From an uncultured Planctomycetales bacterium (GTDB taxonomy: Bacteria; Planctomycetota; Phycisphaerae; UBA1845; Fen-1342), in contig CAYQLG010000008.1 of the NCBI GenBank assembly GCA_964418235.1, forward strand, positions 2,164-66,163: a stretch of DNA of 64,000 bases, written 5' to 3'. Positions 14,591-50,172 of the stretch are shown here, in pieces (within the stretch, counting starts at the first letter, position 1; the number at the start of each line of letters is the position of its first letter). The position numbers and the translations under genes are program-made. The notes below the pieces were generated by a model. It saw only the letters and a program-made list of their open reading frames with translations, was not told the origin of the DNA and made no database searches.

Positions 14591-16063
14591 TCAAACGCGT
14601 GTCTCGCGCCAGCGGCCATAGGCGAAGCGCAGGCTGGAGAGAATCGCGCGGACGATGTTGTCGGCCCACATGCCGCACCACGCGCCGATTAATCCGCCGC
14701 CCAGCGTGATCGCCCCGACATATGCCAACGGCACGCGCAGGCCGACGCCGCAGATCAGGCTGATGTACATCGGCCAGCGCGTATCGCCGGCGCCGCGGAG
14801 GGCGTTGAAGTAAACAATCGCCGCGCCGATGAAGGGCTGGGCGAAGGCGATCAGCCGAAACGCCGGCGCGCCGACCGCGCGCACCGCCGGGTCATGGGTC
14901 ATGAGCTGAAAGAGCACGTCGGCCAGAAAGAAAAACCCGATGCCGACGCTGCTGGTGATGAGCACGCTCTGTAGGGCCGCGCGCTGGCCGGCGTGATAGG
15001 CCGTCTGGGGTTGGCCGGCGCCGAGATACTGACCCACCAGGGTGGCGGCGGCCGTGCCCCATGCAAAAGCCGGCAGATAGCTGATCGCTTCGAGCCGCAT
15101 CGCGATCATGTGGGCGGCATAGTTGGCCGTGCCGGCGTCGGCGGCGCCGCTACGGCTGACGATCTGAATGAACGCGAACTGGGCGGCGCTCATCACGATT
15201 GCATCGAGCGCCGCCGGCCCGCCGATGCGCAGAATTCTCCCGATCATGACGGGGTCGGGGCGGAAATCGGCCCGGCGCAGATGCATCCCGCGCAATCCAC
15301 CCGCCAGCAGCACGAGCATGGCCAGCGCGCCGAGGCACCGCGCAGCCAGCGTCGCATAGGCGATACCCTGCACGCCCGTCGGCGGGCCAAACCAGCCATA
15401 TACGAGTCCGGCTGCCAGAAGCGAATTCACGATGTTGACGCCGAGCATGATGCGCATCGGCGTGAGCATGTCGCCTGACGCGCGCAGGACTGCGCCGCCC
15501 GCCGTCGTGATGCACAGGAAGAGATAGCCGCCGGCGTCGATCTGCAGAAACTGCTGGCATAGCTCGCGGGCTGTCGGGGTCTGCGTCAGCGCTCGCGCTA
15601 CCTGTCCCGAAGCCAGCCATGTGCCGATGCTGGCGACCAGCCCGGCGGCCAGCGCCAGCAGGATCGCCTGATTGAGTGCCCGCTGCGCGACGGCTAGATC
15701 GCGCCCGCCGAACGAGCGGGCCACGACCGCCGCGGCGCCCGTGCCGACGAGCGCAAAGATCATGCCGACCATCCAGCCCATGTAGGAAGCCGTGCCGACA
15801 GCGGCGGTGGCCTCTTTGCTGATCGTGCCGGCGAGGTAGGAATCGATCAGGCCGATGAGGAAGTAGAAAAACTGCTCCCCCAGCATCGGCAGGGCCAGCC
15901 GGAAAACCTGGGCCATCAACGTTCCGCCAGGCAGCGACGTTAGCTCTGGTGGCGCCGCGCCGATCGCGGCGGTGCGCGTGGCATCGTCCGTTATGGCGCT
16001 GGCGGGTGACTCCGATGGATCGACGACGCGAATGAGCAGGCTCCCGGCGCGGTGGCTGCGCAT
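14591..16063 (-). CDS. MATE-family efflux transporter
   Basis: Polytopic protein with a MATE-like start region FRLALPMLGEQFFYFLIGLIDSYLAG and 12-TM-like hydrophobic periodicity. Candidate starts are ATG 16063 or ATG 15916; the ORF is open to 16102. Confidence 0.8.
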   Translation of the reverse strand: MRSHRAGSLLIRVVDPSESPASAITDDATRTAAIGAAPPELTSLPGGTLMAQVFRLALPMLGEQFFYFLIGLIDSYLAGTISKEATAAVGTASYMGWMVGMIFALVGTGAAAVVARSFGGRDLAVAQRALNQAILLALAAGLVASIGTWLASGQVARALTQTPTARELCQQFLQIDAGGYLFLCITTAGGAVLRASGDMLTPMRIMLGVNIVNSLLAAGLVYGWFGPPTGVQGIAYATLAARCLGALAMLVLLAGGLRGMHLRRADFRPDPVMIGRILRIGGPAALDAIVMSAAQFAFIQIVSRSGAADAGTANYAAHMIAMRLEAISYLPAFAWGTAAATLVGQYLGAGQPQTAYHAGQRAALQSVLITSSVGIGFFFLADVLFQLMTHDPAVRAVGAPAFRLIAFAQPFIGAAIVYFNALRGAGDTRWPMYISLICGVGLRVPLAYVGAITLGGGLIGAWCGMWADNIVRAILSSLRFAYGRWRETRV

Positions 16064-16125
16064 ATGCAGCCAGCCTGACTCACTGTAGCACCGATTTCGC
16101 ACGGCGCGGCTGGGCAGGAGAGAAG

Positions 16126-16625
16126 ACGTGATAAGGTGATAAAGTGAGAAGGTGATAAGGGCCGCGGTTCTGAGATCGCGACGCCGGCGGGTTCAATTCG
16201 TTCTTCGCTACTTGCGCTTTGCACTTACAGATACGCCGTCGGCCACAGAGGGCCGACGCACAGTGGCGTGAGAATGTGGGAAGGTGGGAAGGTTAAGATG
16301 CGACGCGTCCGTGGCTCACGCCAGTGCTTCTGTTAATAGCGCGGTAGCGCGATGATCGCAGCGTGCGGCATCCTCAATTCGTTCTTCGCTACTCGCGCTT
16401 CGCACTTACAGATACGCCGTCGGCCACAGAGGGCCGACGCACAGTGGCGTGAGAATGTGGGAAGGTGGGAAGGTTAAGATGCGACGCGTCCGTGGCTCAC
16501 GCCAGTGCTTCTGTTAATAGCGCGGTAGCGCGATGATCGCAGCGTGCGGCATCCTCAATTCGTTCTTCGCTACTCGCGCTTCGCACTTACAGATACGCCG
16601 TCGGCCACAGAGGGCCGACGCTACA
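16126..16625 (+). repeat. Family A composite repeat, with its 3' part tandemly amplified (181-bp period, 2.4 copies)
   Basis: GTGATAAG-type 8-mers x4 (16128-16159), TTCAATTCGTTCTTCGC, hairpin CGCCGTCGGCCACAGAGGGCCGACGC, GTGGGAAG x2 (16276-16291). CAATTCG recurs at 16194, 16375 and 16556. Copies 1 and 2 differ at 2 positions. Partial copy 3 equals copy 2 up to 16622. Confidence 0.9.
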
Positions 16626-17031
16626 GCGCGGCGGTCGTGGGATACGGTGGGCCGACCCGACAGCTTCACATGTCGGCAGAAGTCAGTGGCGATCCACGCG
16701 ACGAAATGCCCTGTGTGATTCAATCGCGTCAATCACGATCTATTTTTCGTGCGCGGTTTAGTCATGTCTGAGGGCATTCACGGCCCACAAATGCGAGGCA
16801 GACACTTGGCATCCGCCGAGAATATGCGCGTGGTCGCCGATCGGCGGCCGGTCTGAGAGAGTGTTCGATCCAAAGCTAAGTCAACGCGGCTGGCAGAACG
16901 ATCGCCGCACGGCGCCGAGCCTCAAGGTGCGCCGGTAACGGTTCGTTTTTTTTGTCCTGGAATCACACTGTTGTGGACGCGCTGGTTATGTCGCCATGCG
17001 CCTGTCCACAAAGCTCTCATTGGAGTGTTTT

Positions 17032-19092
17032 ATGTTTCATTCTCATCACTCGAGAAGTTGGAGCGTCAATGGCTTGGCATTGGTCATGCTGCTTGCCGCC
17101 GGCGCGTCGGCGGCTCCGCCGCGCGTGTGGACCTGGGGGCCGCCGCTGGATGACGGCACGACAGATCCAAGTACGCTCTCTGCGTGCGCACCGCGGTTTA
17201 TCCAAACCGTGCGCGTCAAAGTGATCACCGGGCATCCTACGTTGCCGATTGAAATCGGCATGACCGGCACGCAAGCCGCGACGGCGGTGTGTGAGCTGAT
17301 TCAGGCGCGTGGTTTGCAAGCCGGCGAAGTGGCGATCATTCTGCAGGACTTCGCGAAAGGAGACGGCGCACCGGATAATCCATTCCGCTATTCCGTTTCA
17401 TTGACCACCAACCACGCGGACGGTCTTACGGCGTGTGGGCCTGAGTGCCTGGTCGCTGACTGGTGGATGACGCCGTGGATGTCGAACGGCATCGCGGAAA
17501 CCCGCGCCTGGATGGAGGAGTTCGTGGCGCGCTATCAGTTTCTACAAGCGGAGGCGGCTGGGGGCGGCGGGGGTGGTCTCGAGAAATTGCCAGTGCCGCC
17601 GATTCCGAATCCTTCCCGCTTCATCTTTGACAATGAATTCGAAGTGATTTCTGGCTCTAACATGGAGGAGGTCTTCAGGTTGATGCAGTTGGAGTCGCGC
17701 TGGTACACCGAACCCATTCCGGGCTGGTTTGCTCAGACCCCAACCGGCTTGACGCCGCTCACGATGGAGGAGATCTATGACCAGGCTGGCCGGCCCCCAT
17801 ACCCGTCGGGGGCTGGTCAGGACGATCCCCCATATCTGAACTGGTTGAACTGGTACACCGGCGTGACGTACCAAGCGATTGAGGGTGCGATGAATGCGGC
17901 CGCCTACAGCGTCATTCGGCAGGCCTGGCCTGAATGCATGAGCAGCGATTACCGCACGTCATGCCGGACGGACAATGTGACCGACGAAACGCTGCCGCCC
18001 TACATCGCACGGCGTTATTACTTCGAGACGAAGCCGGGCCACCACGCTTATTGGCAGGGCTATAGCGACATGCAATCGCCGATCACCCCGCTGGTCTGGA
18101 CGCGGCACCTTCGGCCGAATGAGAGTATTTATGACTCCACCTTGCGCATCCACCGCGCCACGTTTGATTCGCTGCTGCATTCCTTCGGCGGGCAAAATCC
18201 GCCGATCGTGCCGTGGTTCAATGTGACGGTATATCTGGACCAGCTTCTGACGACGGCGGATCGCCATCATCAGCGCGATCTGCTCGCGTTGATTCGCAGC
18301 AAGGGCGTCGAAGAGCTGATCGCGTGGAGTGACGGCAACATTTTCATGGATTCACGCTTCACCTGGAATAATCTGTCCAGCGTCATCGCGCAGGTGTGGC
18401 TGGCCGCGGTGACGGATGTCAGCGTAGCGCGCGGCGTTTCAGGCAGCACGAGCGGGCCGCCGCAGGATTTGCTGCGTCACGCCGATGCCGACCCGCTGAC
18501 CTTGCTCGGCGATGGCGGAGCGGGGCAGCAGCTCGAAGTGGTCGTGGGCTTCTCGAGTTGCCTCAACAACCCCGCACGGCTGCGCGTTTCGTTGGATTCG
18601 GTTGAACAGGTCATTGGCGTACCGGACCCGACCGGTATTCCTGCAGACGCCGTGACGACGCAGGTTTCGATTCGCGACTGGAGCGCGGGCGGAACGACGC
18701 CGACCTGGCATTCGATTGGGTTCACGCGCGCCGACGCTTGCGGCAAGATCGAGGCTTTCTACGTCGAAGACGCGACCAGCTACATACGTCCCACCGACGG
18801 GCGCATCGAGATGCGGGTTGCGTATTCGTCCAGCATCGGCGGCATAGTCTCGGTGAAGCTCGATCACATCGCGGCGATCGAACTCGATCCCAGCCCGCTT
18901 GTGCCGAAGTGCCGGTTGGCCGATATCAATCATGATGATCGCTTGAACATCAACGATATCGCCGCATTCACTCTCGCATACGATGCCCAATGCCTGAAGG
19001 CTGATGTCAATCATGATGGCGTGGTGGATGCTCAGGACACGGCAGACTTTTATGAAGCGCTCACTGCCGATCCGAGTTGCTGGTCGCAGTGA
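17032..19092 (+). CDS. Exported hypothetical protein with C-terminal dockerin-like double EF-hand module
   Basis: ATG 17032 gives MFHSHHSRSWSVNGLALVMLLAAGASAAPP (signal-like). No recognisable catalytic domain. C-terminus ADINHDDRLNINDIAAF...ADVNHDGVVDAQDTADFYEAL carries two DxNxDxxxxxxD loops. Confidence 0.6.
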   Translation: MFHSHHSRSWSVNGLALVMLLAAGASAAPPRVWTWGPPLDDGTTDPSTLSACAPRFIQTVRVKVITGHPTLPIEIGMTGTQAATAVCELIQARGLQAGEVAIILQDFAKGDGAPDNPFRYSVSLTTNHADGLTACGPECLVADWWMTPWMSNGIAETRAWMEEFVARYQFLQAEAAGGGGGGLEKLPVPPIPNPSRFIFDNEFEVISGSNMEEVFRLMQLESRWYTEPIPGWFAQTPTGLTPLTMEEIYDQAGRPPYPSGAGQDDPPYLNWLNWYTGVTYQAIEGAMNAAAYSVIRQAWPECMSSDYRTSCRTDNVTDETLPPYIARRYYFETKPGHHAYWQGYSDMQSPITPLVWTRHLRPNESIYDSTLRIHRATFDSLLHSFGGQNPPIVPWFNVTVYLDQLLTTADRHHQRDLLALIRSKGVEELIAWSDGNIFMDSRFTWNNLSSVIAQVWLAAVTDVSVARGVSGSTSGPPQDLLRHADADPLTLLGDGGAGQQLEVVVGFSSCLNNPARLRVSLDSVEQVIGVPDPTGIPADAVTTQVSIRDWSAGGTTPTWHSIGFTRADACGKIEAFYVEDATSYIRPTDGRIEMRVAYSSSIGGIVSVKLDHIAAIELDPSPLVPKCRLADINHDDRLNINDIAAFTLAYDAQCLKADVNHDGVVDAQDTADFYEALTADPSCWSQ

Positions 19093-19127
19093 CGTGTAAC
19101 CATCGACGCTTGAGTCTGTATGCAGAT

Positions 19128-19160
19128 GGGGCAGGCAATCGGCCTGCCCCGTCCGATTTT
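19128..19160 (+). terminator. Rho-independent terminator after 17032..19092
   Basis: Stem GGGGCAGGC (19128-19136) pairs with GCCTGCCCC (19142-19150), 5-nt loop, then GTCCGATTTT. Confidence 0.7.
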
Positions 19161-19252
19161 GACGAGTGCTTGGCGGCAGCATGCGCGGGCGCTGACGGCA
19201 TTCCGCGCGGGGTGCTGGCGGTGGTGCGCCGTCTACGGGAAGATTCCCGCCT

Positions 19253-20509
19253 ATGAATCAGCCGGCGTCTGCACGCAGCCCGATCGCGATTGTTCTCTTG
19301 ACCGTGCTGATCGATACGATCGGTCTGGGCATCATCATCCCGGTGATTCCGAAACTCGTGATGGAGCTGGCGCATGTGCCGACCGAGGGGGCATCACTCT
19401 ATGGCGGCTGGCTGGCGTTTTCGTACGCCGTCACCCAGTTTCTCTTCAGCCCGATCGTCGGCGGATTGAGCGACTGCTTCGGCCGGCGTCCGGTGCTTCT
19501 GTTTAGCCTGCTCGCTTTCGGCGTTGACTATCTCATCATGGGCTTCGCGCCGCACTGGTCCTGGCTGGTGGTGGGGCGCGTGATTGCGGGCATCACCGGC
19601 GCGTCGCACTCGACCGCGAATGCGTACCTGGCCGACATCACGCCGCCGGAGCAGCGTGCCCAGCGCTTTGGCCTGATCGGCGCGATGTTTGGGATCGGCT
19701 TTATCCTCGGGCCGGCTCTGGGCGGCTTGCTGGGGCAGGTGCATTCGCGCCTGCCGTTCTTTGCGGCGGGCGTGCTGGCGCTGCTCAATTGCCTATGGGC
19801 GTTTGCGGTGCTGCCCGAGTCGCTGCGGCCCGCGGAACGGCGGCCATTTACGCTGCGCCGCTCCAATGTGCTGGGAGCGCTGCTGCAGTTGGCGACATTT
19901 CCCGGCGTGCTGGGCATTCTCCTGGCGATTTTTCTGTGGCAGCTCGCCCATCAGTCGTTGCCAAGCACGTGGTCGTACTACACGATGTCGCGCTATCAGT
20001 GGAATGAGTTTCAGGTGGGGCTGTCGCTGGCGTTTGTGGGGGTGTGCATGGCGGTTGTGCAGGGCGGCTTGACGCGGAAGCTTATCCCGCTGCTCGGCGA
20101 ATATCGCGCCGCGATTGTGGGGTTTGCGTTTGGCGCGCTGGGCTATGCGGGCTATGCATTCGCGCCGTATGGCTGGGTGATCTACGCCGTCGTCGCCGGC
20201 TCGGCGATTGGCGGGATCGGCTATCCGGCGTGTAACGCGCTGCTTTCCAAATCTACGCCTTCAAACTCGCAAGGCGAGTTGCAGGGCATCCTGGTCAGCA
20301 GCTTTAGCCTGACGGCGATCGTCGGGCCGCTCCTGATGACGAATGTGTTCTACGCATTCTCACGCGCAGATGCGGTGCTGCGTTTTCCGGGAGCGGCGTT
20401 TCTGCTTTCAGCGATTTTGTCGTTGATCGGGGGCGCGGTGTTTCTATTCACGCAGCGCCGCCAACCGGCGATGGGGGATGCAGCAGTGCGAATTGCGAAT
20501 AGCGAATAG
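19253..20509 (+). CDS. MFS transporter (TetA/TCR-like DHA1 family)
   Basis: 418 aa. N-terminal IAIVLLTVLIDTIGLGIIIPVIP, motif-A-like GGLSDCFGRRPVLL, 12-TM-like profile. The last codons (RIANSE*) come from a family A repeat. Confidence 0.8.
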   Translation: MNQPASARSPIAIVLLTVLIDTIGLGIIIPVIPKLVMELAHVPTEGASLYGGWLAFSYAVTQFLFSPIVGGLSDCFGRRPVLLFSLLAFGVDYLIMGFAPHWSWLVVGRVIAGITGASHSTANAYLADITPPEQRAQRFGLIGAMFGIGFILGPALGGLLGQVHSRLPFFAAGVLALLNCLWAFAVLPESLRPAERRPFTLRRSNVLGALLQLATFPGVLGILLAIFLWQLAHQSLPSTWSYYTMSRYQWNEFQVGLSLAFVGVCMAVVQGGLTRKLIPLLGEYRAAIVGFAFGALGYAGYAFAPYGWVIYAVVAGSAIGGIGYPACNALLSKSTPSNSQGELQGILVSSFSLTAIVGPLLMTNVFYAFSRADAVLRFPGAAFLLSAILSLIGGAVFLFTQRRQPAMGDAAVRIANSE

Positions 20510-20587
20510 CGAAGAACGAATGAAGTCGCCGCCATCGTGAATTGAGCGCCGCGGCCCTTATCACCTTGTCACGTTATCACCTATCAC
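20487..20587 (-). repeat. Family A repeat, partial copy (no hairpin module)
   Basis: GCGAATTGCGAATAGCGAATAGCGAAGAACGAATGAAG followed by GCCGCGG and CTTATCAC-type 8-mers (20555-20587). Confidence 0.75.
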
Positions 20588-20677
20588 GTCTTCCCCCGCG
20601 GCGCGATGTGCAATGCGGCTGCCCTCATCGAGTGCCGTTGGTCACGCCGGCGCAAGCAGCGACTACAGTACCCCGGC

Positions 20678-21859
20678 ATGCGTGTCGCGATCTGCCAGGA
20701 AACCATCGACGTGCGCCGCGGCGGGGCCGAGACCTCGACGCTCGAAATGGCGCGCCATCTTCGCGCGCTCGGGGCGATCGTGACGCTCGTAGCATCCGCC
20801 GAGCCGGCCCAACTCGAGCGGGTTTGCACGGCCGAAGGCCTGGGGTGTGTCGCAATCTCGCCGGCCGGCGGCAAACGGACGCGCACACGCCGCTACGTTG
20901 AGCAGCAGGCCCGCGTCTGCCGCGCCGGCGCGTTCGACATCGTGCACGCTGTCACGCCGTGCCGTGTCGCGGATGTCTATCAGCCGCGCGGCGGCACCTA
21001 TCCCGAGACAATCCGGCGGAGCGTCGCGCTGGGCGGCGCTCGACTGACGCGGCTGATTCGCGCCATCACGCGGCGGTTTAACTTCCGGCAGCAATATCTG
21101 CGCGACATCGAGCGGCGGCTGCTTATCCAGCGACCGGGGCCGTGCGTGGCGGCGCTTTCGCGCTACGTCGGTTATCAGATTCGCCGCGATTTTCCGGATT
21201 TGCCCGAGCCGCAGTTGTTCGACGTTTTCAACGGCGTGGATTTTGAGCCACTACCGGCAGACATCGAGGCGCAGACGCGCGCCCGCCTGCGGCAGACGTG
21301 GGACGCGCAGCGCGGACGACCGGTGGCGCTCTTCGTCGCGCACAACTTCAAGCTCAAGGGGCTGGCCGAATTGATCCGCGCCAGCGCGACGGCGACCGGG
21401 CGTGCGGCGGATTGGCTCGTGGTCGTCGCCGGTCGCGACAATGCCCGGCCCTATCAGCGTTTGGCGGCGCGGCTGGCGATCGCGTCGCGCGTGAAGTTCA
21501 TCGGGGCCGAGACGCCGGTGGCGCAGCTCTATGCGGCGAGCGACGTGCTAACGCACCCAACGTGGTATGACCCGTGCAGCCGCGTCGTGCTAGAGGCGCT
21601 GTGTGCCGGCCTGCCGGTGGTGACGACACAATGGAACGGCGCGGCGGAGGCAATCGAGCGCGGGCGCACGGGTATTGTGATCTCCGATCCGGGTGACGCA
21701 GAGTCGCTCGCCGGGGGGATCGCGGGGGCGCTGGGGCCACGCCTGGCCGCGACCTGTCGGCAGGCCGCGGACGCGGCGCGGGAAAAACTCTCGATGGCAC
21801 GGCATGCACGGGAACTGCTTGCGCTCTACAAGCTCATCCTGGAGCGCCGCGCGCGGTAG
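20678..21859 (+). CDS. Glycosyltransferase family 4 (GT-B, RfaG-like)
   Basis: Internal ATG 20678 (MRVAICQETIDVRRGGAETS). C-terminal GT1/GT4 signature region THPTWYDPCSRVVLEALCAGLPVVTT. Confidence 0.75.
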   Translation: MRVAICQETIDVRRGGAETSTLEMARHLRALGAIVTLVASAEPAQLERVCTAEGLGCVAISPAGGKRTRTRRYVEQQARVCRAGAFDIVHAVTPCRVADVYQPRGGTYPETIRRSVALGGARLTRLIRAITRRFNFRQQYLRDIERRLLIQRPGPCVAALSRYVGYQIRRDFPDLPEPQLFDVFNGVDFEPLPADIEAQTRARLRQTWDAQRGRPVALFVAHNFKLKGLAELIRASATATGRAADWLVVVAGRDNARPYQRLAARLAIASRVKFIGAETPVAQLYAASDVLTHPTWYDPCSRVVLEALCAGLPVVTTQWNGAAEAIERGRTGIVISDPGDAESLAGGIAGALGPRLAATCRQAADAAREKLSMARHARELLALYKLILERRAR

Positions 21860-21884
21860 CGCGGCGATTGACAGCGAAGGGGAT

Positions 21885-22083
21885 GTGATCACGTGATAAT
21901 GCGAGAAAGTGATAAGGAGATGAATTCACGGGCGGATTCAGGATTTCTGTAGCGTCGGCCCTCCGTGGCCGACGGCGGATCTGTAAGTGCGAATGGCGAA
22001 TTGCGAAGAACGAATTGAACGCGCCGACCTCGTGAGCTCAAGGCCGCTGCCCGTATCACTTTATCACCTTATCACGTCATCAC
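21885..22083 (-). repeat. Family A composite repeat (inverted relative to the 23653-23853 copy)
   Basis: GTGATAA-type 8-mers (21885-21915), hairpin CTGTAGCGTCGGCCCTCCGTGGCCGACGGCG (21947-21976), GCGAAGAACGAATTGAAC (22001-22018), CTTATCAC-type 8-mers (22049-22083). The reverse complement aligns by eye over ~140 nt with 23653-23790. Confidence 0.9.
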
Positions 22084-23483
22084 TTTTTCAAATGTTCCGT
22101 CGCGGCTTCGCCGGTGATGAGGCGGGCGGAGCGATTTCTCGTCCAGTAGTTCCAGGCCCACTGCACAAGAATCAACACGCGATTCTCAAACTCCACGATG
22201 AAGAGGATGTGAATGAAGAGCCACAACAGCCACGCCGGATAGCCCCAGAAGCGCACCCACCCAAAATCGGCGACCGCCGCCGCGCGGCCGATAGTCGCCA
22301 GGTCGCCTTTGTGCTGATAGACGAAAGGCGGATCAGCGGCGGTGCTCGGCGGCGTGGCGGGCGTGCTCGCAGCGTTGGAATTGGCCAGCCGCCGCGTGAT
22401 TTGCCGCGCGACATAGCGGCCCTGTTGCATGGCGACCGGGGCGGTGCCGGGCAGCGGCTTGCGATCGGGCCGCTGAACGCACGCAAGATCTCCGATGACG
22501 AAAATCTCCGGGTGGGCGGTGATGGTCAGGTTCGGCTCGACGCTGACGCGCCCGGCGCGATCGAGCGTGACGCCGGCCGCTTCGTGCAGGATGCGCCCCC
22601 ACGGGGAGGCCTGCACGCCGGCAGCCCAAAGTACGGTGTGGGCGCCGATGCGCTCGTTTTGCAGACCGGTTTGAATCAGCACGCAATCGGGCTGCACGTC
22701 GGTGACGCGCACGCTGGTCCAGACGGTGACGCCGAGATGCTCGAGTGAGCGCTTGGCGCGCCAGGACAACTCCGGCGGGTAGGGGGGCAGGACACGCTCG
22801 GCCGCGTCGAGCAGGATGATGCGCGCATCGCGGGGGTTGATGTGGCGGAAGTCGTGCTTAAGCGTGTCGCGCGCGATCTCGGCGATGGCGCCGGCCAGCT
22901 CGACGCCGGTCGGCCCGGCGCCGATGATCACGAACGTCAGCCACGAATCGTCGCGCTGGCCGCGGGCGCAGCGGCGCTCGGCCTCTTCGAATGCGTGCAG
23001 GATGCGGGCGCGGATTTCGGTCGCGTCTTCGATCGTCTTGAGACCCGGCGCATGTCGAGCCCAGTGGTCATGGCCGAAATAGTTGTGACTGGCGCCGGTG
23101 GCGACGATCAGCGTGTCGTATTCGACGAAGTCGTCGCGACTCGGCGCTGTGCTGGTGGTGGCGGGGGCGGGCGGCTGATCAACCGGCGTCTGCGGGGCAG
23201 GGATGGGCTTGAGGAAAATGCGCCGCGCGGCTGGGTCGAGGCCGCTGGCCTCCGCGAGCAAAACGCGCGCATTTCTCTGGCGCTTCAGGATGCCGCGGAG
23301 CGGGACCGCGATATCCGCCGGCGATAGTCCGCCCGTCGCGACCTGATAGAGCAACGGCTGAAACAGGTGGAAGTTGCGGCGATCGATCAATGTGATGTCC
23401 ACCTCTTGTCGCTTCAGCGATTGAGCCGCGAGCAGACCGCCAAACCCCCCACCCAGAATGACCACGCGATGACGCTTGTTCAT
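22080..23483 (-). CDS. ndh: Type II NADH dehydrogenase (NDH-2), FAD-dependent
   Basis: 467 aa. VVILGGGFGGL and a second dinucleotide fold FVIIGAGPTGVELAG. FVIGDLA motif and a C-terminal membrane-associating tail. Confidence 0.85.
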   Translation of the reverse strand: MNKRHRVVILGGGFGGLLAAQSLKRQEVDITLIDRRNFHLFQPLLYQVATGGLSPADIAVPLRGILKRQRNARVLLAEASGLDPAARRIFLKPIPAPQTPVDQPPAPATTSTAPSRDDFVEYDTLIVATGASHNYFGHDHWARHAPGLKTIEDATEIRARILHAFEEAERRCARGQRDDSWLTFVIIGAGPTGVELAGAIAEIARDTLKHDFRHINPRDARIILLDAAERVLPPYPPELSWRAKRSLEHLGVTVWTSVRVTDVQPDCVLIQTGLQNERIGAHTVLWAAGVQASPWGRILHEAAGVTLDRAGRVSVEPNLTITAHPEIFVIGDLACVQRPDRKPLPGTAPVAMQQGRYVARQITRRLANSNAASTPATPPSTAADPPFVYQHKGDLATIGRAAAVADFGWVRFWGYPAWLLWLFIHILFIVEFENRVLILVQWAWNYWTRNRSARLITGEAATEHLKK

Positions 23484-23603
23484 CCGGCGAATGGTACGGT
23501 CGTGGGAGGAAATGAACAGGCTGGCGGCATGAGCTGGTGAAAGCGTGTGTTGCGCTACTGGCGAAATAACTTCGCGAAGCGGCGCACCGTAGGAGTGATG
23601 CCG

Positions 23604-23853
23604 TGCTGTAGCGTTGGGACTCCGTGCCCAACGCCGGGTCGATACGCAAGAAGTGATAAGGTGATCAGGTGAAAAAGTGATAAGGGCCGCGGCTTTGAGC
23701 TGACGAGGTCGGCGCGTTCAATTCGTTCTTCGCCATTCGCCATTCGCACTTTCCAGTACGCCATCGGCCACGGAGGGCCGACGCTACAGCGCACTTACGG
23801 TCAGCCGCGGAAGACCGACACAAGGGGGCGTGGGAAGGTGGGAACGTGGGAAG
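23604..23853 (+). repeat. Family A composite repeat preceded by an extra hairpin module
   Basis: Hairpin GCTGTAGCGTTGGGACTCCGTGCCCAACGCCGGGTCG (23604-23640), GTGATAAG-type x4 (23653-23685), TTCAATTCGTTCTTCGC (23717-23733), hairpin CCATCGGCCACGGAGGGCCGACGCTACAG, GTGGGAAG-type x3 (23830-23853). Confidence 0.9.
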
Positions 23854-23867
23854 ATGATCAGGCTGGT

Positions 23868-24947
23868 TCAGCGCGGGCCGAGATCGGCGCCGGTCACGAT
23901 CTTGACCCGGCCGCCGTTTTGTTCGGCGATGCGGCGAAGCGTGCGCACGCCGTCGGTCTCGCGCGGCAACTGGCTCGTGTCGCCCAGGAGCAGTTCGTCG
24001 AAGACGAGCGTGTAGAGCTTGGTGTTGGTCTTGTTCAGCGAGCGGATTTCGCGCTCGGCGGCGGCAGCATCTTCGAACAGGCCATCGGAGAAGATGAACA
24101 TGACTTCGGGCTTGAGGCTCAGCCCGCGGCGGATCGCCGGCAATGGATCGCTGCCGCCCTCCGGGGCTTTTGAATTGAGCCAGTCGAAGAAGCGCTTTTT
24201 CGTCGGTTCGGTCGCGGCGACGAGGCTGCCGCTGAACGCATCGGCGACAATGCGATCCTGTTGCACTTTGCTGTAGAAGAGAATCACTTCAAAGGATTGC
24301 TCGGGCTTGAGGCTGCCGATGGAACGACGCAGCTCGCGCTTCAGGTCATCGACCGCCACCACGATTGAGCCTGAGAAATCGACCACGTAGACGATCTTCG
24401 ACGCGGCGACGGATAGATCCCATACGCCCGCGCGCAGCAGCCGCGAACTGCCGCCGCCGAGGCCGCTCCCAAAGCCGCCGGCGCCGGCCGCGCCCGCGCC
24501 GGTGCCCGTGCCGAGCAGACTCAGCCGGCCCTCGCCGAGGCCAAAGCCGTCATCGCTGCCGCCGGATTTGCCGATGTCGGTCGGCGTGATGGCGGCGGTG
24601 TCGAGTTGGCGGAGATCGCTGAGGTCCATCAGGTCTTCGAGCGGGGTGGTTGGGCGCTGTTCGAGCGCCTGGAGCAACTCTTGATTACCCCACTGAAACG
24701 CGGCGCTCATCTGATCGGCGAGGCTTTGCGTCAGGCCGGCGCGATAGTCGCCGACATCAAGCGTCTCGCGCTGAAAAATCGAGAAGGTCTTGAGCGCGAG
24801 GAAGATCAATAGCGCCACGTGCAGCAACAGGCTGATCGTCATCGGCACCCCCAAATGCATCAGCCAGCGCAGGGCCGGGTTGTGCTGCTCGCGATCGGGC
24901 AGCGGCTCGGAGGCGGCGGCGGGGGTGGAGTGGGGTGCGTCCGTCAT
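23868..24947 (-). CDS. Membrane-anchored von Willebrand factor A (vWA) domain protein
   Basis: 359 aa. N-terminal TM MTISLLLHVALLIFLAL. MIDAS-like IVYVVDFSGSI. C-terminal vWA fold (VMFIFSDG). Confidence 0.7.
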   Translation of the reverse strand: MTDAPHSTPAAASEPLPDREQHNPALRWLMHLGVPMTISLLLHVALLIFLALKTFSIFQRETLDVGDYRAGLTQSLADQMSAAFQWGNQELLQALEQRPTTPLEDLMDLSDLRQLDTAAITPTDIGKSGGSDDGFGLGEGRLSLLGTGTGAGAAGAGGFGSGLGGGSSRLLRAGVWDLSVAASKIVYVVDFSGSIVVAVDDLKRELRRSIGSLKPEQSFEVILFYSKVQQDRIVADAFSGSLVAATEPTKKRFFDWLNSKAPEGGSDPLPAIRRGLSLKPEVMFIFSDGLFEDAAAAEREIRSLNKTNTKLYTLVFDELLLGDTSQLPRETDGVRTLRRIAEQNGGRVKIVTGADLGPR

Positions 24948-25000
24948 GGCGGATCAGGAGGCAGAGGTTGGGTGTTTTTGGGGCAGAAGACACCGGAATG

Positions 25001-25150
25001 CGGGTCGGAGACCCGCGAAAACAATCACCGGTCGGAGACCGGTGCCACACGCACAATCACCGGTCGGAGACCGGTGCCACAAGCACAATCACCGGTCGGA
25101 GACCGGTGCCACACGCACAATCACCGGCCAGAGAACCGGTGCCACACACA
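25001..25150. repeat. Tandem array of five phased hairpins: one related upstream hairpin plus a 32-bp repeat in 3 perfect-stem copies and 1 degenerate copy
   Basis: Units start at 25021, 25053, 25085 and 25117. Each contains CACCGGTC-GGA-GACCGGTG (8-bp stem). The upstream GCGGGTC-GGA-GACCCGC hairpin (~25000-25016) has the same loop. There are no unique spacers between units. Confidence 0.9.
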
Positions 25151-25186
25151 GCTCAGGACTGCGCTCCGTCGCGTAGAGCATTTTCA

Positions 25187-25651: not shown

Positions 25652-25828
25652 TCCTTCGTTGAGATTGTAACGGCAGACCGGATGTTACGTCCGCGTACAC
25701 CGAGCCGCGCCCGTGAGCGGCGCCGAGCACCCAAGCGGAGCCGCGACCGTAAGGAAGCGATTCGAATCGATCAACGCCTGATCCGCGCGTCGCGCTGCGC
25801 ATCAGAAACAGACCAGATCGCCTGCATT

Positions 25829-25897
25829 CGCCGACAGCGCCAACATCCGCCGAGAGCGCCCGCACTCGCCGACAGCGCCGCAATCGCCGATAGCGCG
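25829..25897. repeat. Four direct copies of CGCCGA(C/G/T)AGCGC(C/G) at 18-19-bp spacing
   Basis: Copies at 25829, 25848, 25867 and 25885, between the gcvP stop (25994) and the DUF1844 gene start (25651). Confidence 0.7.
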
Positions 25898-25993: not shown

Positions 25994-28900
25994 TCAGACG
26001 GAGAGAGTCGCCGCGGCTTCGACCGGCACGCAGGAGCAGAACAGGTTGCGATCGCCCCAGACGTTATCGACGCGCGCGACCGGCGGCCAGTACTTGTGCG
26101 CCCGCACCCACGCCGCCGGAAACGCCGCGGTCTCGCGCGAGTAGGGATGCGCCCAGGAGTTTGCACAGACCTCCTGCGCCGTGTGCGGGGCGTTCTTGAG
26201 CGGATTGTCGGCGCGATCGCCGCGTCCGGTCTCGATTGCGCGAATTTCGGCGCGGATCGCGATGAGCGCGTCGCAGAGCCGATCCAGCTCCGCGCGTGCT
26301 TCGCTTTCGGTCGGCTCGATCATGAGCGTGCCGGCGACGGGCCAGCTCATGGTCGGCGCGTGGAAGCCATAGTCCATCAGCCGCTTGGCGATGTCTTCGA
26401 CCTTAATGCCGGCCGATTCTTCGAAGGCGCGGCAATCGACGATGAACTCATGCGCGACGCGGCCGTTCTTGCCGCGATAGAGAATCGGGTAGTGCTCCTC
26501 AAGCCGGCGGGCCATGTAGTTCGCATTCAAGATCGCGGCTTGCGTCGCCTTGGTCAGGCCCGACGAACCCATCATGGCGATGTACATCCATGAAATGGTC
26601 AGGATGCTCGCGCTGCCGAACGGGGCCGCCGAGACCGGACCGACGCGGGAGGAGGAGGGTGATAAGGTGATAAGGTGATACGGTGATAAGGCAGCGGCAT
26701 CGTCCGCGTCAGCGATTCCCGATATCGCTGCGGCGACAGTTGTGTCTCTGCCCTTTCCACCTTCCCACGTTCCCACCTTCCCACTGGCATCCGCCGTACG
26801 CACGCCCGGATCGACGACCGGATGCCCCGACAAGTACGGCGCAAGATGAGCGGCGACGCCGATCGGGCCCATGCCGGGGCCGCCGCCGCCATGCGGGATG
26901 CAGAAGGTTTTGTGCAGATTGAGGTGGCAGACATCCGCGCCGATGTCGGCGGGGCGCGTCAGGCCGACCTGCGCATTCATATTCGCGCCGTCCATATAGA
27001 CCTGCCCGCCATAGCGATGCACGACCTCGCAAATTTCGCGGATGCCCTCTTCGAAGACGCCGTGTGTCGAGGGGTAGGTCACCATCAGGGCGGCGAGACC
27101 GGCGCGGTGCTGCTCCGCTTTGACCGAGAGGTCTTCGACGTTGATATTGCCCAGATCGTCACACGCAACGGGCACGACTCTGAAGCCCGCCATGACGGCG
27201 CTGGCCGGGTTGGTCCCGTGCGCCGAGACGGGAATCAGGCAGATGTTTCGCCGGCTGTCGCCGCGGCTTTCGTGATACGCGCGGATCGTCAGCAGGCCGG
27301 CGTATTCGCCCTGCGCCCCGCTGTTGGGTTGCAGGGAAACCGCGGCAAACCCGGTGATTTCGGCCAGCCAGCTTTCGAGCGAGTAGCACAGCTCCTGATA
27401 GCCGCGCGTCTGATCGGCGGGGGCGAAGGGGTGCATGCGGCCGAACTCGGGCCAGGTAACCGGGATCATCTCGCTCGTGCCGTTGAGTTTCATCGTGCAC
27501 GAGCCGAGCGGGATCATGCTGGTCGTCAGTGAGAGATCCTTTGCTTGCAGCCGGTTGAGATAGCGGAGCATTTCGTGCTCGCTGTGATACTGATTGAAGA
27601 CCGGGTGCGTGAGATAAGCCGTCTCGCGCCGCAGCGCCGCCGGTATGACGTCCGGGTCCGATGGGATCGGCGCCTTCGGGTCGAGCTCGAAGCCGCGCCC
27701 GCAGCCGAACGACCCGAGCACCTGTTTCACGTCTTCGAGGGTCGTGGTTTCATCGAGCGAGACGCCGAGCGTTCCGTCGCCGTAGTCGCGCAGGTTCAGT
27801 CCGTGTTCGACGCCGGCCTTGAGCACGCCGACGGCGTCGTTTTTGCAGTGCTCGCCGATGACCGGGCGCACACGGATCGTGTCGAAGTACGTCGGCGTGA
27901 GCACCTCATGGCCGAGCCAGCGCATGCCGTTGGCGAGGATGCGGGTGAAGCCGTGCACGCGCTCCGCGATGCGGCGGAGGCCCTTCGGGCCGTGATAGAC
28001 CGCGTACATGCTCGCCATGACCGCGAGCAGCACCTGCGCGGTGCAGATGTTGCTGGTAGCCTTCTCGCGGCGGATGTGCTGCTCGCGCGTCGCCAGCGAC
28101 AGGCGATACGCCGTCTGGCCGCGCGCGTCCTTCGAAACGCCGATGAGCCGGCCCGGAATCTGCCGCTTGAATTCATCGCGGCAGGCGAGAAACGCGGCGT
28201 GCGGCCCGCCAAAGCCCAGCGGTACGCCGAAGCGCTGCGCGCTGCCGATGACGATGTCGGCGCCCCACTCGCCCGGCGGTTTGAGCAGCGTGAGGGCTAA
28301 CAGATCGGTGGCCACAATCACCCGCGCGCCGCCGGCGTGCATGCGCGCGACCGCCTCGGAGTAATCGTTCACATTGCCGAAGGTGTTGGGATATTGCAGC
28401 AGCACGCCGAAGAAGTCGTTCTTCGAATAATCGGTCTCGCGCGGGCAGTCGATGACGACCTCGATGCCGAGCGGCCGCGCGCGGGTTTGTACGACCGCAA
28501 TCGTCTGCGGGTGGCAACGCTTGGCGACGAGAAACTTGTTGCGGCCGCCGTCGCTGAGCGCGTGGGCCATGTGCATCGCCTCGGCGGCCGCGGTGGCCTC
28601 GTCGAGGAGCGATGCGTTGGCGATCGGCAGACTGGTCAGGTCGGCCACCATCGTCTGGAAGTTGATCAGGGCCTCGAGCCGGCCCTGTGAGATCTCCGCC
28701 TGATAGGGCGTGTATTGCGTGTACCAGCCGGGATTCTCAAGCACGTTGCGCAGAATGACCGGCGGCGTGATCGTGTCGTAATAGCCCATGCCGATGTAAC
28801 TGCGCAAGACGCGGTTTTTCAGGGCGATGGCGCGCAAGCGCGCGAGCGTCTCGTTTTCGCCGCGCGGCGGGTCGAGACGGAGCGGGGCTTTCATGCGAAT

Positions 28901-42989: not shown

Positions 42990-43025
42990 TGCAATTCGTT
43001 CTTCGCTGTTCGACATTCGAACTTG
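42990..43025 (+). repeat. Family A core fragment
   Basis: GCAATTCGTTCTTCGCTGTTCGACATTCGAAC resembles the TTCAATTCGTTCTTCGCCATTCGCCATTCGCAC core. Confidence 0.5.
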
Positions 43026-43040: not shown

Positions 43041-43628
<588 letters not shown>

Positions 43629-43732
43629 CGGGTCGCTTTCGGCAGATTTTCGCACGGATCGGCCGGCTGCATCGGCGCGGGTCACGCGGGGCACTGGCCG
43701 CCGCGCGCCGGCGCGGCTAGCCTCTCTGCGTC

Positions 43733-44150: not shown

Positions 44151-44249
44151 GCTGTAGCGTTGGGCCTCCGTGCCCAACGCCGGGTCGTGCGGGCGCTTCA
44201 TTCGAGCGGCCGACGCGCGGGATGGTGGGTAGGTGGAAATGAGGAATGG
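44151..44249 (+). repeat. Family A hairpin module plus a degenerate GTGGGAAG-like array
   Basis: GCTGTAGCGTTGGGCCTCCGTGCCCAACGCCGGGTCG (44151-44187) nearly equals 23604-23640. GATGGTGGGTAGGTGGAAATGAGGAATGG at 44221-44249. Confidence 0.65.
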
Positions 44250-50059: not shown

Positions 50060-50172
50060 TCGCCAATCATTCTTCGATCTTCGCGATTCGCCATTTCTCA
50101 TCCGCCGTCGGCCGCGGCTGGTGATGCGAGTGGCGTGAGAAGGTGCGAAGGTGATAACGTCATAAGGTGAAG
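50060..50172 (+). repeat. Degenerate family A copy
   Basis: CGCCAATCATTCTTCGATCTTCGCGATTCGCCATTTC, then CCGCCGTCGGCCGCGGC, then 8-mer-like GTGATGCGAGTGGCGTGAGAAGGTGCGAAGGTGATAACGTCATAAGGTGAAGG. Confidence 0.5.

What the first reader, a model, noticed from the sequence alone, without database searches (positions are those of the whole stretch)
16126..23853. Dispersed modular repeat family A built from tandem 8-mer arrays, a conserved core and a hairpin
A composite element of about 170-200 bp recurs at 16126-16297 (then amplified), 20487-20587 (partial), 21885-22083, 23604-23853 and 26658-26783 (short, intragenic). Degenerate pieces lie at 38318-38365, 42990-43025, 44151-44249, 50060-50172 and probably 63338-63483. 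The module order is: [GTGATAAG]x3-4, GCCGCGG, TTCAATTCGTTCTTCGC(C/T)A..TCGC, hairpin (C)GTCGGCC-N6-GGCCGAC(G) with flanking CTACAG/CTGTAG, then [GTGGGAAG]x2-3. The two array types differ at 2 of 8 positions. They occur either in direct arrangement (16128, 23653) or inverted like terminal repeats (21885-22083; 26658-26783). In the 16-24 kb stretch almost every intergenic gap carries one. No transposase is present in the window. The element also donates codons to gene ends, such as the MFS C-terminus RIANSE* and the region next to the ndh stop. I do not recognise this architecture as a described REP, BIME or MITE family.
Basis: seen in the sequence. Interest (0 to 1): 0.6.

Follow-up and report, generated by a model that had tools for sequence, protein, structure and literature searches.

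The report
Mosaic of REP hairpins and short tandem arrays
The "family A element" is not one mobile unit: it is a genome-wide patchwork of a classical GTAG-tagged REP hairpin and 7- and 8-base tandem arrays that sits just after gene ends in a planctomycete. This is a known kind of bacterial repeat landscape with some unusual positional rules.

Summary
All listed copies are in the window and are far beyond chance. The modules occur throughout the 4.74-Mb genome: 312 raw hairpin matches (294 after merging), 65 cores, 52 (GTGATAAG)n, 106 (GTGGGAAG)n, 92 (NATTCGC)n and 69 (ACTCGCY)n arrays. Between 71% and 97% are intergenic.

There is no fixed A-core-hairpin-B element. Of 403 module clusters, 246 are single modules, and the full order occurs essentially only in this window.

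The hairpin is a GTAG-tagged REP, with REPIN-like inverted doublets at fixed 22- and 39-nt spacers. The arrays resemble cyanobacterial STRR repeats and TAACTGA-type heptamer repeats. Their combination, with local 104-184-bp tandem amplification, is BIME-like.

New points:
- Modules avoid divergent promoter gaps and hug gene 3' ends, with the purine-rich strand as sense. (GCGAGTR)n starts a median of 6 nt after the stop codon.
- Unit positions GTG..AA. and GCGA... are 94-99% invariant.
- (GTGGGAAS)n recurs in many PVC and other phyla.
- No RAYT flanked by this REP is in the assembly.

The scan had already noted related arrays in this and other genomes.

The parts
16128..16159 (+). A array, 4 units of GTGATAAG-type octamers
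16192..16225 (+). Core TTCAATTCGTTCTTCGC followed by degenerate NNTTCGC heptamers; this is the first unit of the 181-bp tandem amplification
16193..16626 (+). Tandem amplification, 181 bp x 2.4 copies at 98% identity. Each unit holds core, REP hairpin (16238-16257, 16419-16438, 16600-16626) and B array (16268-16291, 16449-16472)
20488..20522 (-). Heptamer array with degenerate core. In the sense of the MFS gene it reads (GCGAATR)n GCGAAGAACGAATG and supplies the last codons and the TAG stop (20507-20509)
20557..20580 (-). A array, 3 units, reverse orientation (CTTATCAC)
21885..21916 (+). Degenerate A array (GTGATCAC GTGATAAT GCGAGAAA GTGATAAG), 26 nt after the glycosyltransferase stop, purine-rich strand in sense
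   Evidence: read directly; below the threshold of the census
21947..21973 (-). REP hairpin R. On the + strand it reads CTGTAG-CGTCGGCC-CTCCGT-GGCCGACG (GTAG tag plus 8-bp stem)
   Evidence: fold -22.1 kcal/mol, z -2.7
21989..22019 (-). Heptamer array plus core, reverse orientation
22052..22083 (-). A array, 4 units. In the sense of ndh it reads GTGATGAC GTGATAAG GTGATAAA GTGATACG and overlaps the ndh stop codon
23606..23634 (+). Second GTAG-tagged hairpin, a REP variant: CTGTAG-CGTTGGG-N-CCCAACG
   Evidence: read directly; same type as 44152-44178
23653..23684 (+). A array, 4 units
23717..23747 (+). Core plus (CATTCGC)n heptamers
23763..23789 (+). REP hairpin R with its GCTACAG tag
   Evidence: fold -23.3 kcal/mol, z -3.2
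23830..23861 (+). B array (GTGGGAAG-type), ending 7 nt before the 3' end of the minus-strand gene 23868..24947
26659..26784 (+). It folds as a long imperfect hairpin
42990..43025 (+). Core (1 mismatch) plus degenerate heptamers, abutting the 3' end of the minus-strand gene 43041..43694
44152..44178 (-). Variant GTAG-tagged REP (GTTGGGC-N6-GCCCAAC-GCTACAG)
50060..50166 (+). Degenerate heptamers, a half REP, then an A array (50135-50166)

Best explanation
WHAT IT IS. 'Family A' is a BIME-like mosaic of two independent kinds of non-coding repeat.
1. A GTAG-tagged REP hairpin (CTGTAG-CGTCGGCC-N6-GGCCGACG). It occurs singly and as REPIN-like inverted doublets.
2. Short tandem arrays of two unit classes: octamers GTGnnAAs (A = GTGATAAG, B = GTGGGAAG) and heptamers GCGAnnn, written on the other strand as NATTCGC or ACTCGCY. 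The 'core' is simply the conserved end of a heptamer array.

HOW IT WORKS.
- Inferred: the REPs spread by a RAYT-type Y1 transposase acting in trans on single-stranded hairpins.
- Inferred from runs of identical variant units within arrays: the arrays grow and shrink by slipped-strand mispairing.
- Shown: modules are joined and multiplied by local tandem duplication of 104-184-bp blocks.
- Shown: the patchwork survives where it does not break promoters, that is, directly downstream of genes. Orientation follows transcription, not replication. The purine-rich, C-poor strand is the sense strand right after the stop codon.
- Shown by prediction only, for one 146-nt composite: apart from the hairpin, the arrays there fold no better than shuffled sequence.
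- Inferred: the elements are transcribed into 3' untranslated regions, where the REP hairpin (no U tail) acts as a 3'-exonuclease barrier or pause site. The arrays are tolerated or mildly useful spacer that often supplies the stop codon.
For: Genome-wide census:
- 312 raw R matches (294 after merging overlaps), 65 cores, 52 A, 106 B, 92 H and 69 E arrays.
- 71-97% are intergenic, against about 21% non-coding DNA.
- 246 of 403 clusters are single modules.

REP identity:
- GTAG tag, 7-8-bp GC-rich stem and 6-nt loop (ACGGAG in 124 copies, ACAGAG in 42).
- 38 tag-outward inverted pairs against 1 of the opposite kind, with spacers of 21-22 nt (16 pairs) and 39 nt (12 pairs).
- One stem pair shows a C-G to G-C swap (215 versus 45 copies).
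- Stable fold, z -2.7 to -3.2.
- GTAG REPs are described in Planctomycetes (PMC3733652).

Mosaic and amplification:
- Co-occurrence is 50-fold or more above random.
- 15 tandem amplifications with periods of 101-184 bp, mostly 2-4 copies, at 86-100% identity contain modules.

Position:
- Divergent gaps are depleted: H 1 of 69 (13.7 expected), E 0 of 52, R 19 of 228 (45 expected).
- Convergent gaps are enriched: R 96 against 48 expected.
- In tandem gaps H is oriented 30:6 and E 32:6.
- Sense-(GCGAGTR)n starts a median of 6 nt after the stop; 36 of 55 start within 20 nt.
- Orientation is not tied to GC skew.

Lineage-specific expansion: the core 14-mer occurs 29 times here against 0-3 in 24 other genera of the family. 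The REP pattern occurs 91 times against 0-9.

The two orthologous gene ends I could compare in a relative have no modules in this genome.
Against: - No RAYT flanked by this REP is in the assembly. The only free-standing Y1 gene scores as IS200-type and is flanked by a different hairpin.
- Most arrays occur without any REP, so REP mobilisation cannot explain how they spread.
- Unit positions GTG..AA. and GCGA... are 94-99% invariant, while positions 8 and 7 are free (entropy 1.55 and 1.68 bits).
- A and B arrays peak sharply at 4 units.
- The same octamer array occurs in many phyla.
- The last three points fit a recognised motif better than neutral slippage.
- Gene calls come from my own crude caller.
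Confidence: 0.6

Rival explanations
1. A discrete non-autonomous transposable element (MITE-like 'family A') of 170-200 bp, with a defined order A-core-hairpin-B, moved as a unit by an unseen transposase.
For: - The three good window copies share the order A, GGCCGCGG, core, heptamers, hairpin.
- An A array precedes 11 of 65 cores against 0.04 expected.
- Nine inverted array pairs look like terminal inverted repeats.
- Copy number is strongly lineage-specific.
Against: - 61% of clusters are single modules, and the full order is seen once in the cluster census and at no more than 3 of 65 cores.
- There are no conserved ends and no target-site duplications.
- The DNA between inverted arrays is unique in 5 of the 6 intervals for which BLAST results were seen, and holds only other repeats in the sixth.
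- Arrays differ in nearly every copy.
Confidence: 0.07
2. The arrays are functional cis elements. They would be periodic binding sites in the 3' untranslated RNA (or in DNA) for a protein or for the ribosome, acting after transcription. This is analogous to what was proposed for TAACTGA heptamer repeats. REP association would be secondary.
For: - Position-specific conservation within units.
- A modal size of 4 units for A and B arrays.
- Tight, strand-specific placement a few nt after stop codons.
- (GTGGGAAS)3 is present in at least 107 stretches from Planctomycetota, Verrucomicrobiota, Chlamydiota, KSB1, Hydrogenedentota, Chloroflexota and others, usually next to sister octamers such as GTGAGAAC, GTGCGAAC and GTTTGAAC.
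- The A unit contains AGGTGAT and the B unit AGGTG, both complementary to the 16S 3' end GGATCACCTCCTT. This was noticed post hoc.
- Precedent: PMC4679880.
Against: - Distribution is patchy: B dimers in only 12 of 60 other family genomes, and A dimers in 0 of 300 genomes across the phylum.
- Both orthologous gene ends that could be compared lack them.
- Genes without arrays show no purine skew after the stop.
- In several verrucomicrobial loci, by eye, the arrays lie upstream of start codons in the opposite orientation.
- No binding partner has been identified.
Confidence: 0.2
3. The arrays act as strand-specific Rho-loading sites that stop antisense and convergent read-through transcription. 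The antisense strand of every unit is C-rich and G-poor and carries a conserved YC dinucleotide (YCAC in octamers, TCGC in heptamers).
For: - The purine-rich strand is sense at the adjoining gene end, so the C-rich strand is met only by transcripts entering from the other side.
- Convergent gaps are the favoured location.
- Position 4 of the octamer is restricted to purines (G 0.60, A 0.36), which gives a YC on the antisense strand.
- The one array-containing composite that was folded is predicted to be unstructured apart from the hairpin.
- No intrinsic terminators lie at these sites.
Against: - This is purely compositional inference.
- From my own knowledge, reported spacing of C residues in rut sites is about 11-13 nt, not 7-8.
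- B arrays show little orientation bias in tandem gaps (14:11).
- There are no transcript data.
Confidence: 0.08

Closest known systems
GTAG-tagged REPs and REPINs (Di Nocera, De Gregorio & Rocco 2013, PMC3733652; the RAYT/REPIN literature is from my own knowledge)
   Same: - Unpaired GTAG tag next to a GC-rich 7-8-bp stem and a short loop.
- About 300 copies, 91% extragenic, mostly downstream of genes.
- Inverted doublets with fixed spacers.
- Several REP families in one genome, and occasional intragenic copies.
   Different: - No RAYT gene flanked by this REP is in the assembly.
- The RAYT-like sequences present are in-frame inserts in ileS and purH, flanked by other REP families.
- This REP is regularly joined to tandem heptamer arrays.
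BIMEs (bacterial interspersed mosaic elements) of enterobacteria (own knowledge; the abbreviation is listed in PMC3733652)
   Same: - A mosaic of REP hairpins with other short conserved motifs in preferred order and orientation.
- Clusters are built by tandem repetition of a composite unit.
- Location is at gene ends and between convergent genes.
   Different: - The non-REP motifs here are themselves tandem 7- and 8-nt arrays.
- Those arrays are also common without any REP.
Cyanobacterial STRR heptamer repeats and prokaryotic long simple-sequence repeats with 5-11-nt units
   Same: - Tandem heptamer arrays at on the order of 50-100 mostly intergenic loci per genome.
- Several unit families in one genome.
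- Origin unknown.
   Different: - A different phylum, and octamers as well as heptamers.
- A strict stop-codon-proximal, strand-specific position.
- Association with REPs.
TAACTGA heptamer direct repeats of Beggiatoaceae, Cyanobacteria and Bacteroidetes (MacGregor 2015, PMC4679880)
   Same: - Many intergenic sets of a specific short direct repeat.
- Patchy distribution across distant phyla with no evident transfer mechanism.
- Tight positioning relative to a codon landmark.
   Different: - TAACTGA sets lie a few nt upstream of start codons, whereas these arrays lie a few nt downstream of stop codons.
- The units are different.
MITEs
   Same: - Small, non-coding and dispersed.
- Some copies have inverted ends that fold into long hairpins.
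- Some copies are inserted in frame in genes.
   Different: - No conserved internal sequence.
- No target-site duplication.
- No fixed length.

Membership tests
GTAG-tagged REP / REPIN | Short (20-40 bp) imperfect palindrome with an unpaired GTAG at one end | tested here: met
   CTGTAG-CGTCGGCC-N6-GGCCGACG. The tag reads GCTACAG in 172 of 294 copies. The stem pairs are kept in 215-277 of 294 copies per position.
GTAG-tagged REP / REPIN | High copy number, mostly extragenic, mostly downstream of genes | tested here: met
   312 raw matches (294 merged), 91% intergenic. Convergent gaps 96 against 48 expected; divergent gaps 19 against 45 expected.
GTAG-tagged REP / REPIN | Frequent inverted doublets with a characteristic spacer | tested here: met
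   38 tag-outward inverted pairs against 1 of the opposite kind. Spacers of 21-22 nt (16 pairs) and 39 nt (12 pairs). Doublets fold at -46 to -87 kcal/mol.
GTAG-tagged REP / REPIN | A cognate RAYT gene flanked by the same REPs | tested here: not met
   In this genome NF047646 matches only in-frame inserts in ileS (79 and 90 bits) and purH (73 bits). These are flanked by other hairpin families. The free Y1 gene scores as IS200-type. The assembly is 92.8% complete in 263 contigs, so absence is not proven.
BIME | REPs combined with other conserved short motifs in preferred order and orientation | tested here: met
   The pattern REP-core-heptamers-REP occurs at 13 of 65 cores. Strings of co-oriented modules dominate.
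BIME | Clusters formed by tandem repetition of the composite unit | tested here: met
   15 loci with periods of 101-184 bp, 1.8-3.8 copies, at 86-100% identity. One is window 16193-16626.
BIME | Binding of IHF, gyrase or Pol I to specific BIME classes | not testable with these tools
   Needs biochemistry.
MITE | Terminal inverted repeats flanked by target-site duplications | tested here: not met
   Nine inverted array pairs were inspected by eye and no flanking direct repeats were seen.
MITE | Copies homologous along their whole length, of uniform size | tested here: not met
   Inner segments of 8-229 nt. Five of the six for which BLAST results were seen are unique in the genome. 61% of clusters are single modules.
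STRR / long simple-sequence repeats | Head-to-tail arrays of 5-11-nt units at many, mostly intergenic loci | tested here: met
   TRF finds 146 arrays of GTGnnAAn and 111 arrays of GCGAnnn. They are 71-90% intergenic.
STRR / long simple-sequence repeats | Unit number polymorphic between strains (slippage) | not testable with these tools
   No near relative was found in the metagenome scan (best match 60% identity).

The most novel reading that the evidence does not exclude
The octamer arrays (GTGnnAAs)n and heptamer arrays (GCGAnnn)n may be a distinct, undescribed class of constrained periodic element shared across the PVC superphylum and beyond. The supporting features are: invariant unit positions; a preferred 4-unit (32-nt) module; strand-specific placement within a few nucleotides after stop codons; and inverted 4-unit pairs that bracket unique DNA and get inserted in frame into essential genes. 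On this reading they would be recognised by a still unknown protein or RNA (for RNA 3'-end biology or for mobilisation), rather than being neutral slippage products riding with REPs.
Probability: 0.2. Interest if true: 0.75.

Novelty: new variant of a known kind. Interest (0 to 1): 0.45.

Why it matters
- REPs, BIMEs and STRR-like repeats have been known for decades, yet their spread and function are still debated.
- This genome offers an unusually clean natural data set. Hundreds of modules follow strict positional rules: avoidance of promoter gaps, a transcription-linked strand choice, and arrays that start within a few bases of stop codons and sometimes supply the stop.
- If the rules hold in other PVC genomes that carry the same octamers, they point to a transcript-level role or constraint for short tandem arrays. 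That could be tested with 3'-end mapping.
- For annotation the message is practical. These modules create gene ends, in-frame protein inserts and assembly breaks in planctomycete MAGs.

Tried and rejected
- **Near relatives for filled or empty sites.** The metagenome scan with the ndh protein gave at best 60% identity, and none of the 80 loci holds any module. The genus has no second genome in the collection.
- **Replication-strand explanation of orientation.** There is no clear link to local GC skew.
- **A general purine-rich rule after stop codons.** It is absent in the 1442 genes without modules.
- **Known RNA families.** No Rfam match at E<=1 in 15500-27500.
- **Intrinsic terminators or sigma-70 promoters at the modules.** None, and the counts equal those in shuffles.
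- **Target-site duplications at inverted array pairs.** None seen.
- **Inner segments as captured genomic copies.** They are unique.
- **RAYT presence as a correlate of B arrays in the family.** RAYT-like genes are in 54 of 61 genomes, so this does not discriminate.
- **The stop-proximal rule in other phyla.** My crude ORF caller placed 41 of 91 arrays inside 'genes', so the test is inconclusive.
- **Array-donated TAG stops.** TAG is 47% of stops within 10 nt of E arrays against 36% genome-wide, which is only a mild excess.


Full report
**1. Observation**

It holds:
- octamer arrays of GTGATAAG type (A) and GTGGGAAG type (B);
- the core TTCAATTCGTTCTTCGC, followed by NNTTCGC heptamers;
- the hairpin GTCGGCC-N6-GGCCGAC with a GCTACAG or CTGTAG flank.

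Tandem Repeats Finder lists the arrays and a 181-bp unit repeated 2.4 times at 98% identity at 16193-16626. In the 64-kb window the core matches 6 times at <=2 mismatches against 0.00 expected. The hairpin matches 6 times against 0.09 expected.

The MFS ORF (19253..20509) ends RIANSE* inside the heptamer array. The ndh ORF (22080..23483, minus strand) ends in an A array. Four of the five intergenic gaps between 16.1 and 23.9 kb carry modules.

**2. The modules are genome-wide**

The window is G000:C8:2164-66163 of a 4.74-Mb assembly with 263 contigs, 64% G+C and 92.8% completeness. I called genes with a simple codon-likelihood caller, which gave 3035 genes and 79% coding DNA, and then catalogued the modules.

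| Module | Count | Intergenic |
|---|---|---|
| A arrays (GTGATAAG)n | 52 | 88% |
| B arrays (GTGGGAAG)n | 106 | 71% |
| H arrays (NATTCGC)n | 92 | 90% |
| E arrays (ACTCGCY)n | 69 | 90% |
| Cores (<=2 mismatches) | 65 | 97% |
| Hairpins R (<=4 mismatches) | 312 raw, 294 merged | 91% |

Only about 21% of the genome is non-coding, so all module types are strongly intergenic.

**3. It is not one element**

Grouping modules that lie within 100 nt of each other gives 403 clusters, of which 246 are single modules. The full order A-core-heptamers-hairpin-B appears once in the cluster census, at window 23653-23861. Relative to the 65 cores:
- a hairpin follows within 110 nt in 32 cases (0.5 expected);
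- a hairpin precedes in 25 cases;
- heptamers follow in 35 cases;
- an A array precedes in 11 cases (0.04 expected);
- a B array follows in only 3 cases.

The commonest composite is hairpin-core-heptamers-hairpin, in 13 cases. The modules therefore associate far above chance, but in variable combinations.

Fifteen tandem amplifications containing modules exist. Their periods are 101-184 bp, copy numbers 1.8-3.8 and identities 86-100%; one is the window's 181-bp case. The 'core' is best read as the conserved end of a heptamer array: TTCAATTCG|TTCTTCGC|YATTCGC...

**4. The hairpin is a classical REP**

Read on the other strand it is CTGTAG-CGTCGGCC-N6-GGCCGACG, an unpaired GTAG tag next to a GC-rich palindrome.
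- The loop is ACGGAG in 124 copies and ACAGAG in 42.
- The stem pairs are kept in 215-277 of 294 copies per position. One pair shows a C-G to G-C exchange in 45 copies.
- There are 38 tag-outward inverted pairs against a single pair of the opposite kind. Their spacers are 21-22 nt (16 pairs) and 39 nt (12 pairs).
- The partner is a variant REP (CGTCGGG...CCCGACG), so these are heterodimeric, REPIN-like doublets.
- Single copies fold at -22 to -23 kcal/mol, with z of -2.7 to -3.2.

GTAG-tagged REPs, their dimers, their bias for gene 3' sides and their occasional intragenic copies are described. The description includes Planctomycetes such as R. baltica (PMC3733652). There is no U tract after the stem, and the terminator scan finds nothing at these sites.

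**5. Search for a transposase partner**

PF01797 and NF047646 searches of the genome gave four places.
- One is a free 150-aa Y1 gene on C13. It scores as IS200-type (74.7 bits against a cut-off of 55) and fails the RAYT model (33.9 against 80). It is flanked by a different hairpin family.
- The other three are RAYT-like domains lying in frame inside an IleS-like ORF of 1683 aa (two inserts, 79.9 and 90.5 bits as protein segments) and inside a PurH-like ORF of 921 aa (73.5 bits).
- The second ileS insert is flanked by inverted copies of another GTAG REP, GTAGCATGGGCCTCCGGCCCGTGC, which has about 200-250 copies in the genome. The first insert is flanked by GGGACAGGCTTCCAGCCTGTCC-type hairpins.

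No RAYT is flanked by the REP of this finding. High-scoring free RAYTs (170-193 bits) are common in the other genera of the family. RAYT-like hits inside open frames of more than 700 aa also recur there.

**6. The arrays**

TRF on the whole genome shows two dominant unit classes:
- octamers: GTGGGAAG, GTGGGAAC, GTGGGAAA, GTGATAAG, GTGATAAA, GTGATAAC and GTGAGAAG;
- heptamers which, read on the purine-rich strand, are GCGAGTA, GCGAGTG, GCGAGTT, GCGAATA, GCGAATG, GCGAATT, GCGAAGA and GCGAAGT.

Cutting TRF-defined arrays into units gives strongly position-specific variation.
- Octamer positions 1-3 (GTG) and 6-7 (AA) are 96-98% invariant. Position 8 is free (G 0.55, C 0.29, A 0.12). Position 4 is a purine in 96% of units.
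- Heptamer positions 1-4 (GCGA) are 94-99% invariant. Position 7 is free.

A and B arrays peak at exactly four units (30 of 52 and 45 of 106). Almost every array differs in exact sequence. In the one 146-nt composite I folded, the sequence apart from the hairpin folds no better than shuffles (z +0.59).

**7. Positional rules**

Each module was turned to its + orientation and compared with the genome's mix of gap types.

| Module | Divergent gaps (observed / expected) | Convergent gaps (observed / expected) |
|---|---|---|
| A | 2 of 42 / 8.3 | 21 / 8.8 |
| H | 1 of 69 / 13.7 | 32 / 14.5 |
| E | 0 of 52 / 10.3 | 14 / 10.9 (not enriched) |
| R | 19 of 228 / 45 | 96 / 48 |

In tandem gaps the orientation counts are 30:6 for H, 32:6 for E and 73:40 for R. 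The consistent reading is that the purine-rich, C-poor strand is the sense strand of the adjoining upstream gene.

In that orientation:
- E arrays start a median of 6 nt after the stop codon, and 36 of 55 start within 20 nt;
- H arrays start a median of 43 nt after it, and 30 of 77 start within 20 nt;
- A arrays start a median of 65 nt after it;
- in the opposite orientation the medians are 150-250 nt.

The arrays lie nearer to that 3' end than to the other flanking gene in 43 of 46 cases for E and 55 of 62 for H. Module orientation does not follow local GC skew. Genes without modules show no purine excess after the stop. Modules in one cluster are not independent, so the P values are optimistic.

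In the sense orientation GTGATAAG, GCGAGTAG and GCGAATAG carry stop codons. GTGGGAAG is open in all six frames, which fits its higher genic share of 29%.

**8. Inverted array pairs**

Nine pairs have the form (GTGnnAAG)4-5 - N(8-229) - (CTTnnCAC)3-4; most arms are exactly 4 units. Only two pairs have the reverse arrangement. Six of the nine lie inside ORFs, among them the window's 26659-26784. No flanking direct repeats are visible by eye. Of the six inner segments for which BLAST results were seen, five are unique in the genome; the sixth holds only other repeats. The window copy folds at -54.5 kcal/mol, z -3.6. This is not MITE behaviour, and I cannot explain it.

**9. Distribution**

- In 40 relatives, the core 14-mer occurs 29 times here and 0-3 times elsewhere. 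The REP pattern occurs 91 times here and 6, 9 and 1 times in three other genera, and not at all in the rest. The reversed-pattern controls gave 0.
- GTGATAAG dimers occur 15 times here and in none of 300 genomes sampled across the phylum.
- GTGGGAAG dimers occur in 12 of 60 other genomes of the family. There they stand beside sister arrays such as (GTGAAAAC)n, (GTGATAAC)n, (GGGAACAA)n and (TAGTTTC)n.
Most are in Planctomycetota and Verrucomicrobiota. Others are in Chlamydiota, KSB1, Hydrogenedentota, Gemmatimonadota, Nitrospirota, Chloroflexota, a cyanobacterium, a Burkholderia and a Serratia symbiotica. Typically they lie next to related octamer arrays.
- Both orthologous gene ends I could compare with a relative carry no module in this genome.

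**10. Reading**

What it is: a BIME-like mosaic of a GTAG REP/REPIN family and STRR-like tandem arrays, greatly expanded in this lineage. I hold this with fairly high confidence.

How it works is mostly inference:
- REP spread by a RAYT acting in trans;
- array growth by slippage, suggested by blocks of identical variant units within arrays;
- shuffling by local duplication, which is shown;
- retention at gene 3' ends, with selection acting on the transcript.

The invariant unit positions, the four-unit mode, the stop-codon proximity and the cross-phylum recurrence are not well explained by neutral slippage. They keep open a functional reading, such as a periodic binding site or C-rich antisense Rho-loading sites. 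The closest published parallel for such arrays is the TAACTGA heptamer system, which lies just upstream of start codons and is likewise patchy across phyla and unexplained (PMC4679880).

**11. Limits**

- The gene calls are crude.
- The assembly is fragmented. Many arrays sit at contig ends, so the counts are lower bounds.
- No transcript or population data could be used.
- Earlier notes of this scan reported the in-frame gcvP copy and the 181-bp amplification in this window. They also reported similar octamer arrays in other genomes: inverted pairs bracketing unique DNA, a block starting 1 nt after a stop, and in-frame copies in uvrA and rsmA. I used those notes as leads only.

Noticed in passing
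G000:C79:10482-15530 (+) and G000:C192:1077-3839 (-), outside the window: RAYT-like Y1 transposase domains (HUH motif VMPDHVHML; NF047646 at 79.9, 90.5 and 73.5 bits) lie in frame inside an IleS-like ORF (1683 aa, two inserts) and a PurH-like ORF (921 aa). The second ileS insert is flanked by inverted GTAG REPs (13201+, 13763-, 13841-), so a whole REPtron-like unit is read through as protein. RAYT-like hits inside open frames of more than 700 aa recur in many genera of the family, which suggests old, retained inserts.
   Followed up: partly
whole genome G000 (k-mer census): Several other high-copy hairpin and repeat families exist. GGGTAGCATGGGCCTCCGGCCCGTGCGTCCCAC has roughly 200-250 copies and is also GTAG-tagged. 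The others are CGGGCGCGGTTCGGTTTG (about 200), CAGAGCCGCGACCGTGAGGGAG (about 150), ACAGGCTTCCAGCCTGT (about 105) and TTCATCCGAAAATTCAA (about 100).
   Followed up: no
whole genome G000 (TRF): A third octamer array family, (GAAGCGAC)n with the variants ACGGAGCG and ACGCAGCG, occurs in about 50-80 arrays. Smaller heptamer families such as GAAGAGT and GTTAAGA often sit between E and H arrays.
   Followed up: no
G000:C41:16622-16791; C73:19021-19100 and 20612-20756; C93:10108-10400 and 10657-10768; C79:14490-14671: Inverted octamer array pairs, mostly 4 units per arm, lie inside long ORFs and bracket unique DNA. The window's 26659-26784 copy is one of a recurrent class of in-frame inserts.
   Followed up: partly
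G000:C13:24796-25251 (-), locus L001: The only free-standing Y1 (IS200-type) gene is flanked by CTTCGCCCGGAGGGCG and GCCAGTGACTTCAGTCACTGG hairpins. The same hairpin repeat stands beside B arrays in relative G346 (loci L035 and L043).
   Followed up: partly
loci L131-L210 (other phyla): (GTGGGAAS)n arrays in Verrucomicrobiota, KSB1, Hydrogenedentota, Chloroflexota and others grade into sister octamers (GTGTGAAG, GTTTGAAG, GTGAGAAC, GTGCGAAC, GTAAGAAC). They sit next to unrelated short arrays. In several Opitutales loci, by eye, they lie directly upstream of start codons in the C-rich orientation.
   Followed up: partly
whole genome G000 (crude gene calls): Stop-codon usage by my caller is TAG 36%, TGA 42% and TAA 22%. 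The TAG share is high for a 64% G+C genome. Of the stops within 60 nt of a REP in the favoured orientation, 46 of 79 are TAG, so the REP's CTGTAG tag probably supplies some stops.
   Followed up: partly
G000:C69, about 1.5 kb from the end of the reverse strand: The 16S rRNA 3' end reads GGATCACCTCCTTTCT, a canonical anti-Shine-Dalgarno sequence. The A unit junction AGGTGAT and the B unit AGGTG are complementary to it.
   Followed up: no
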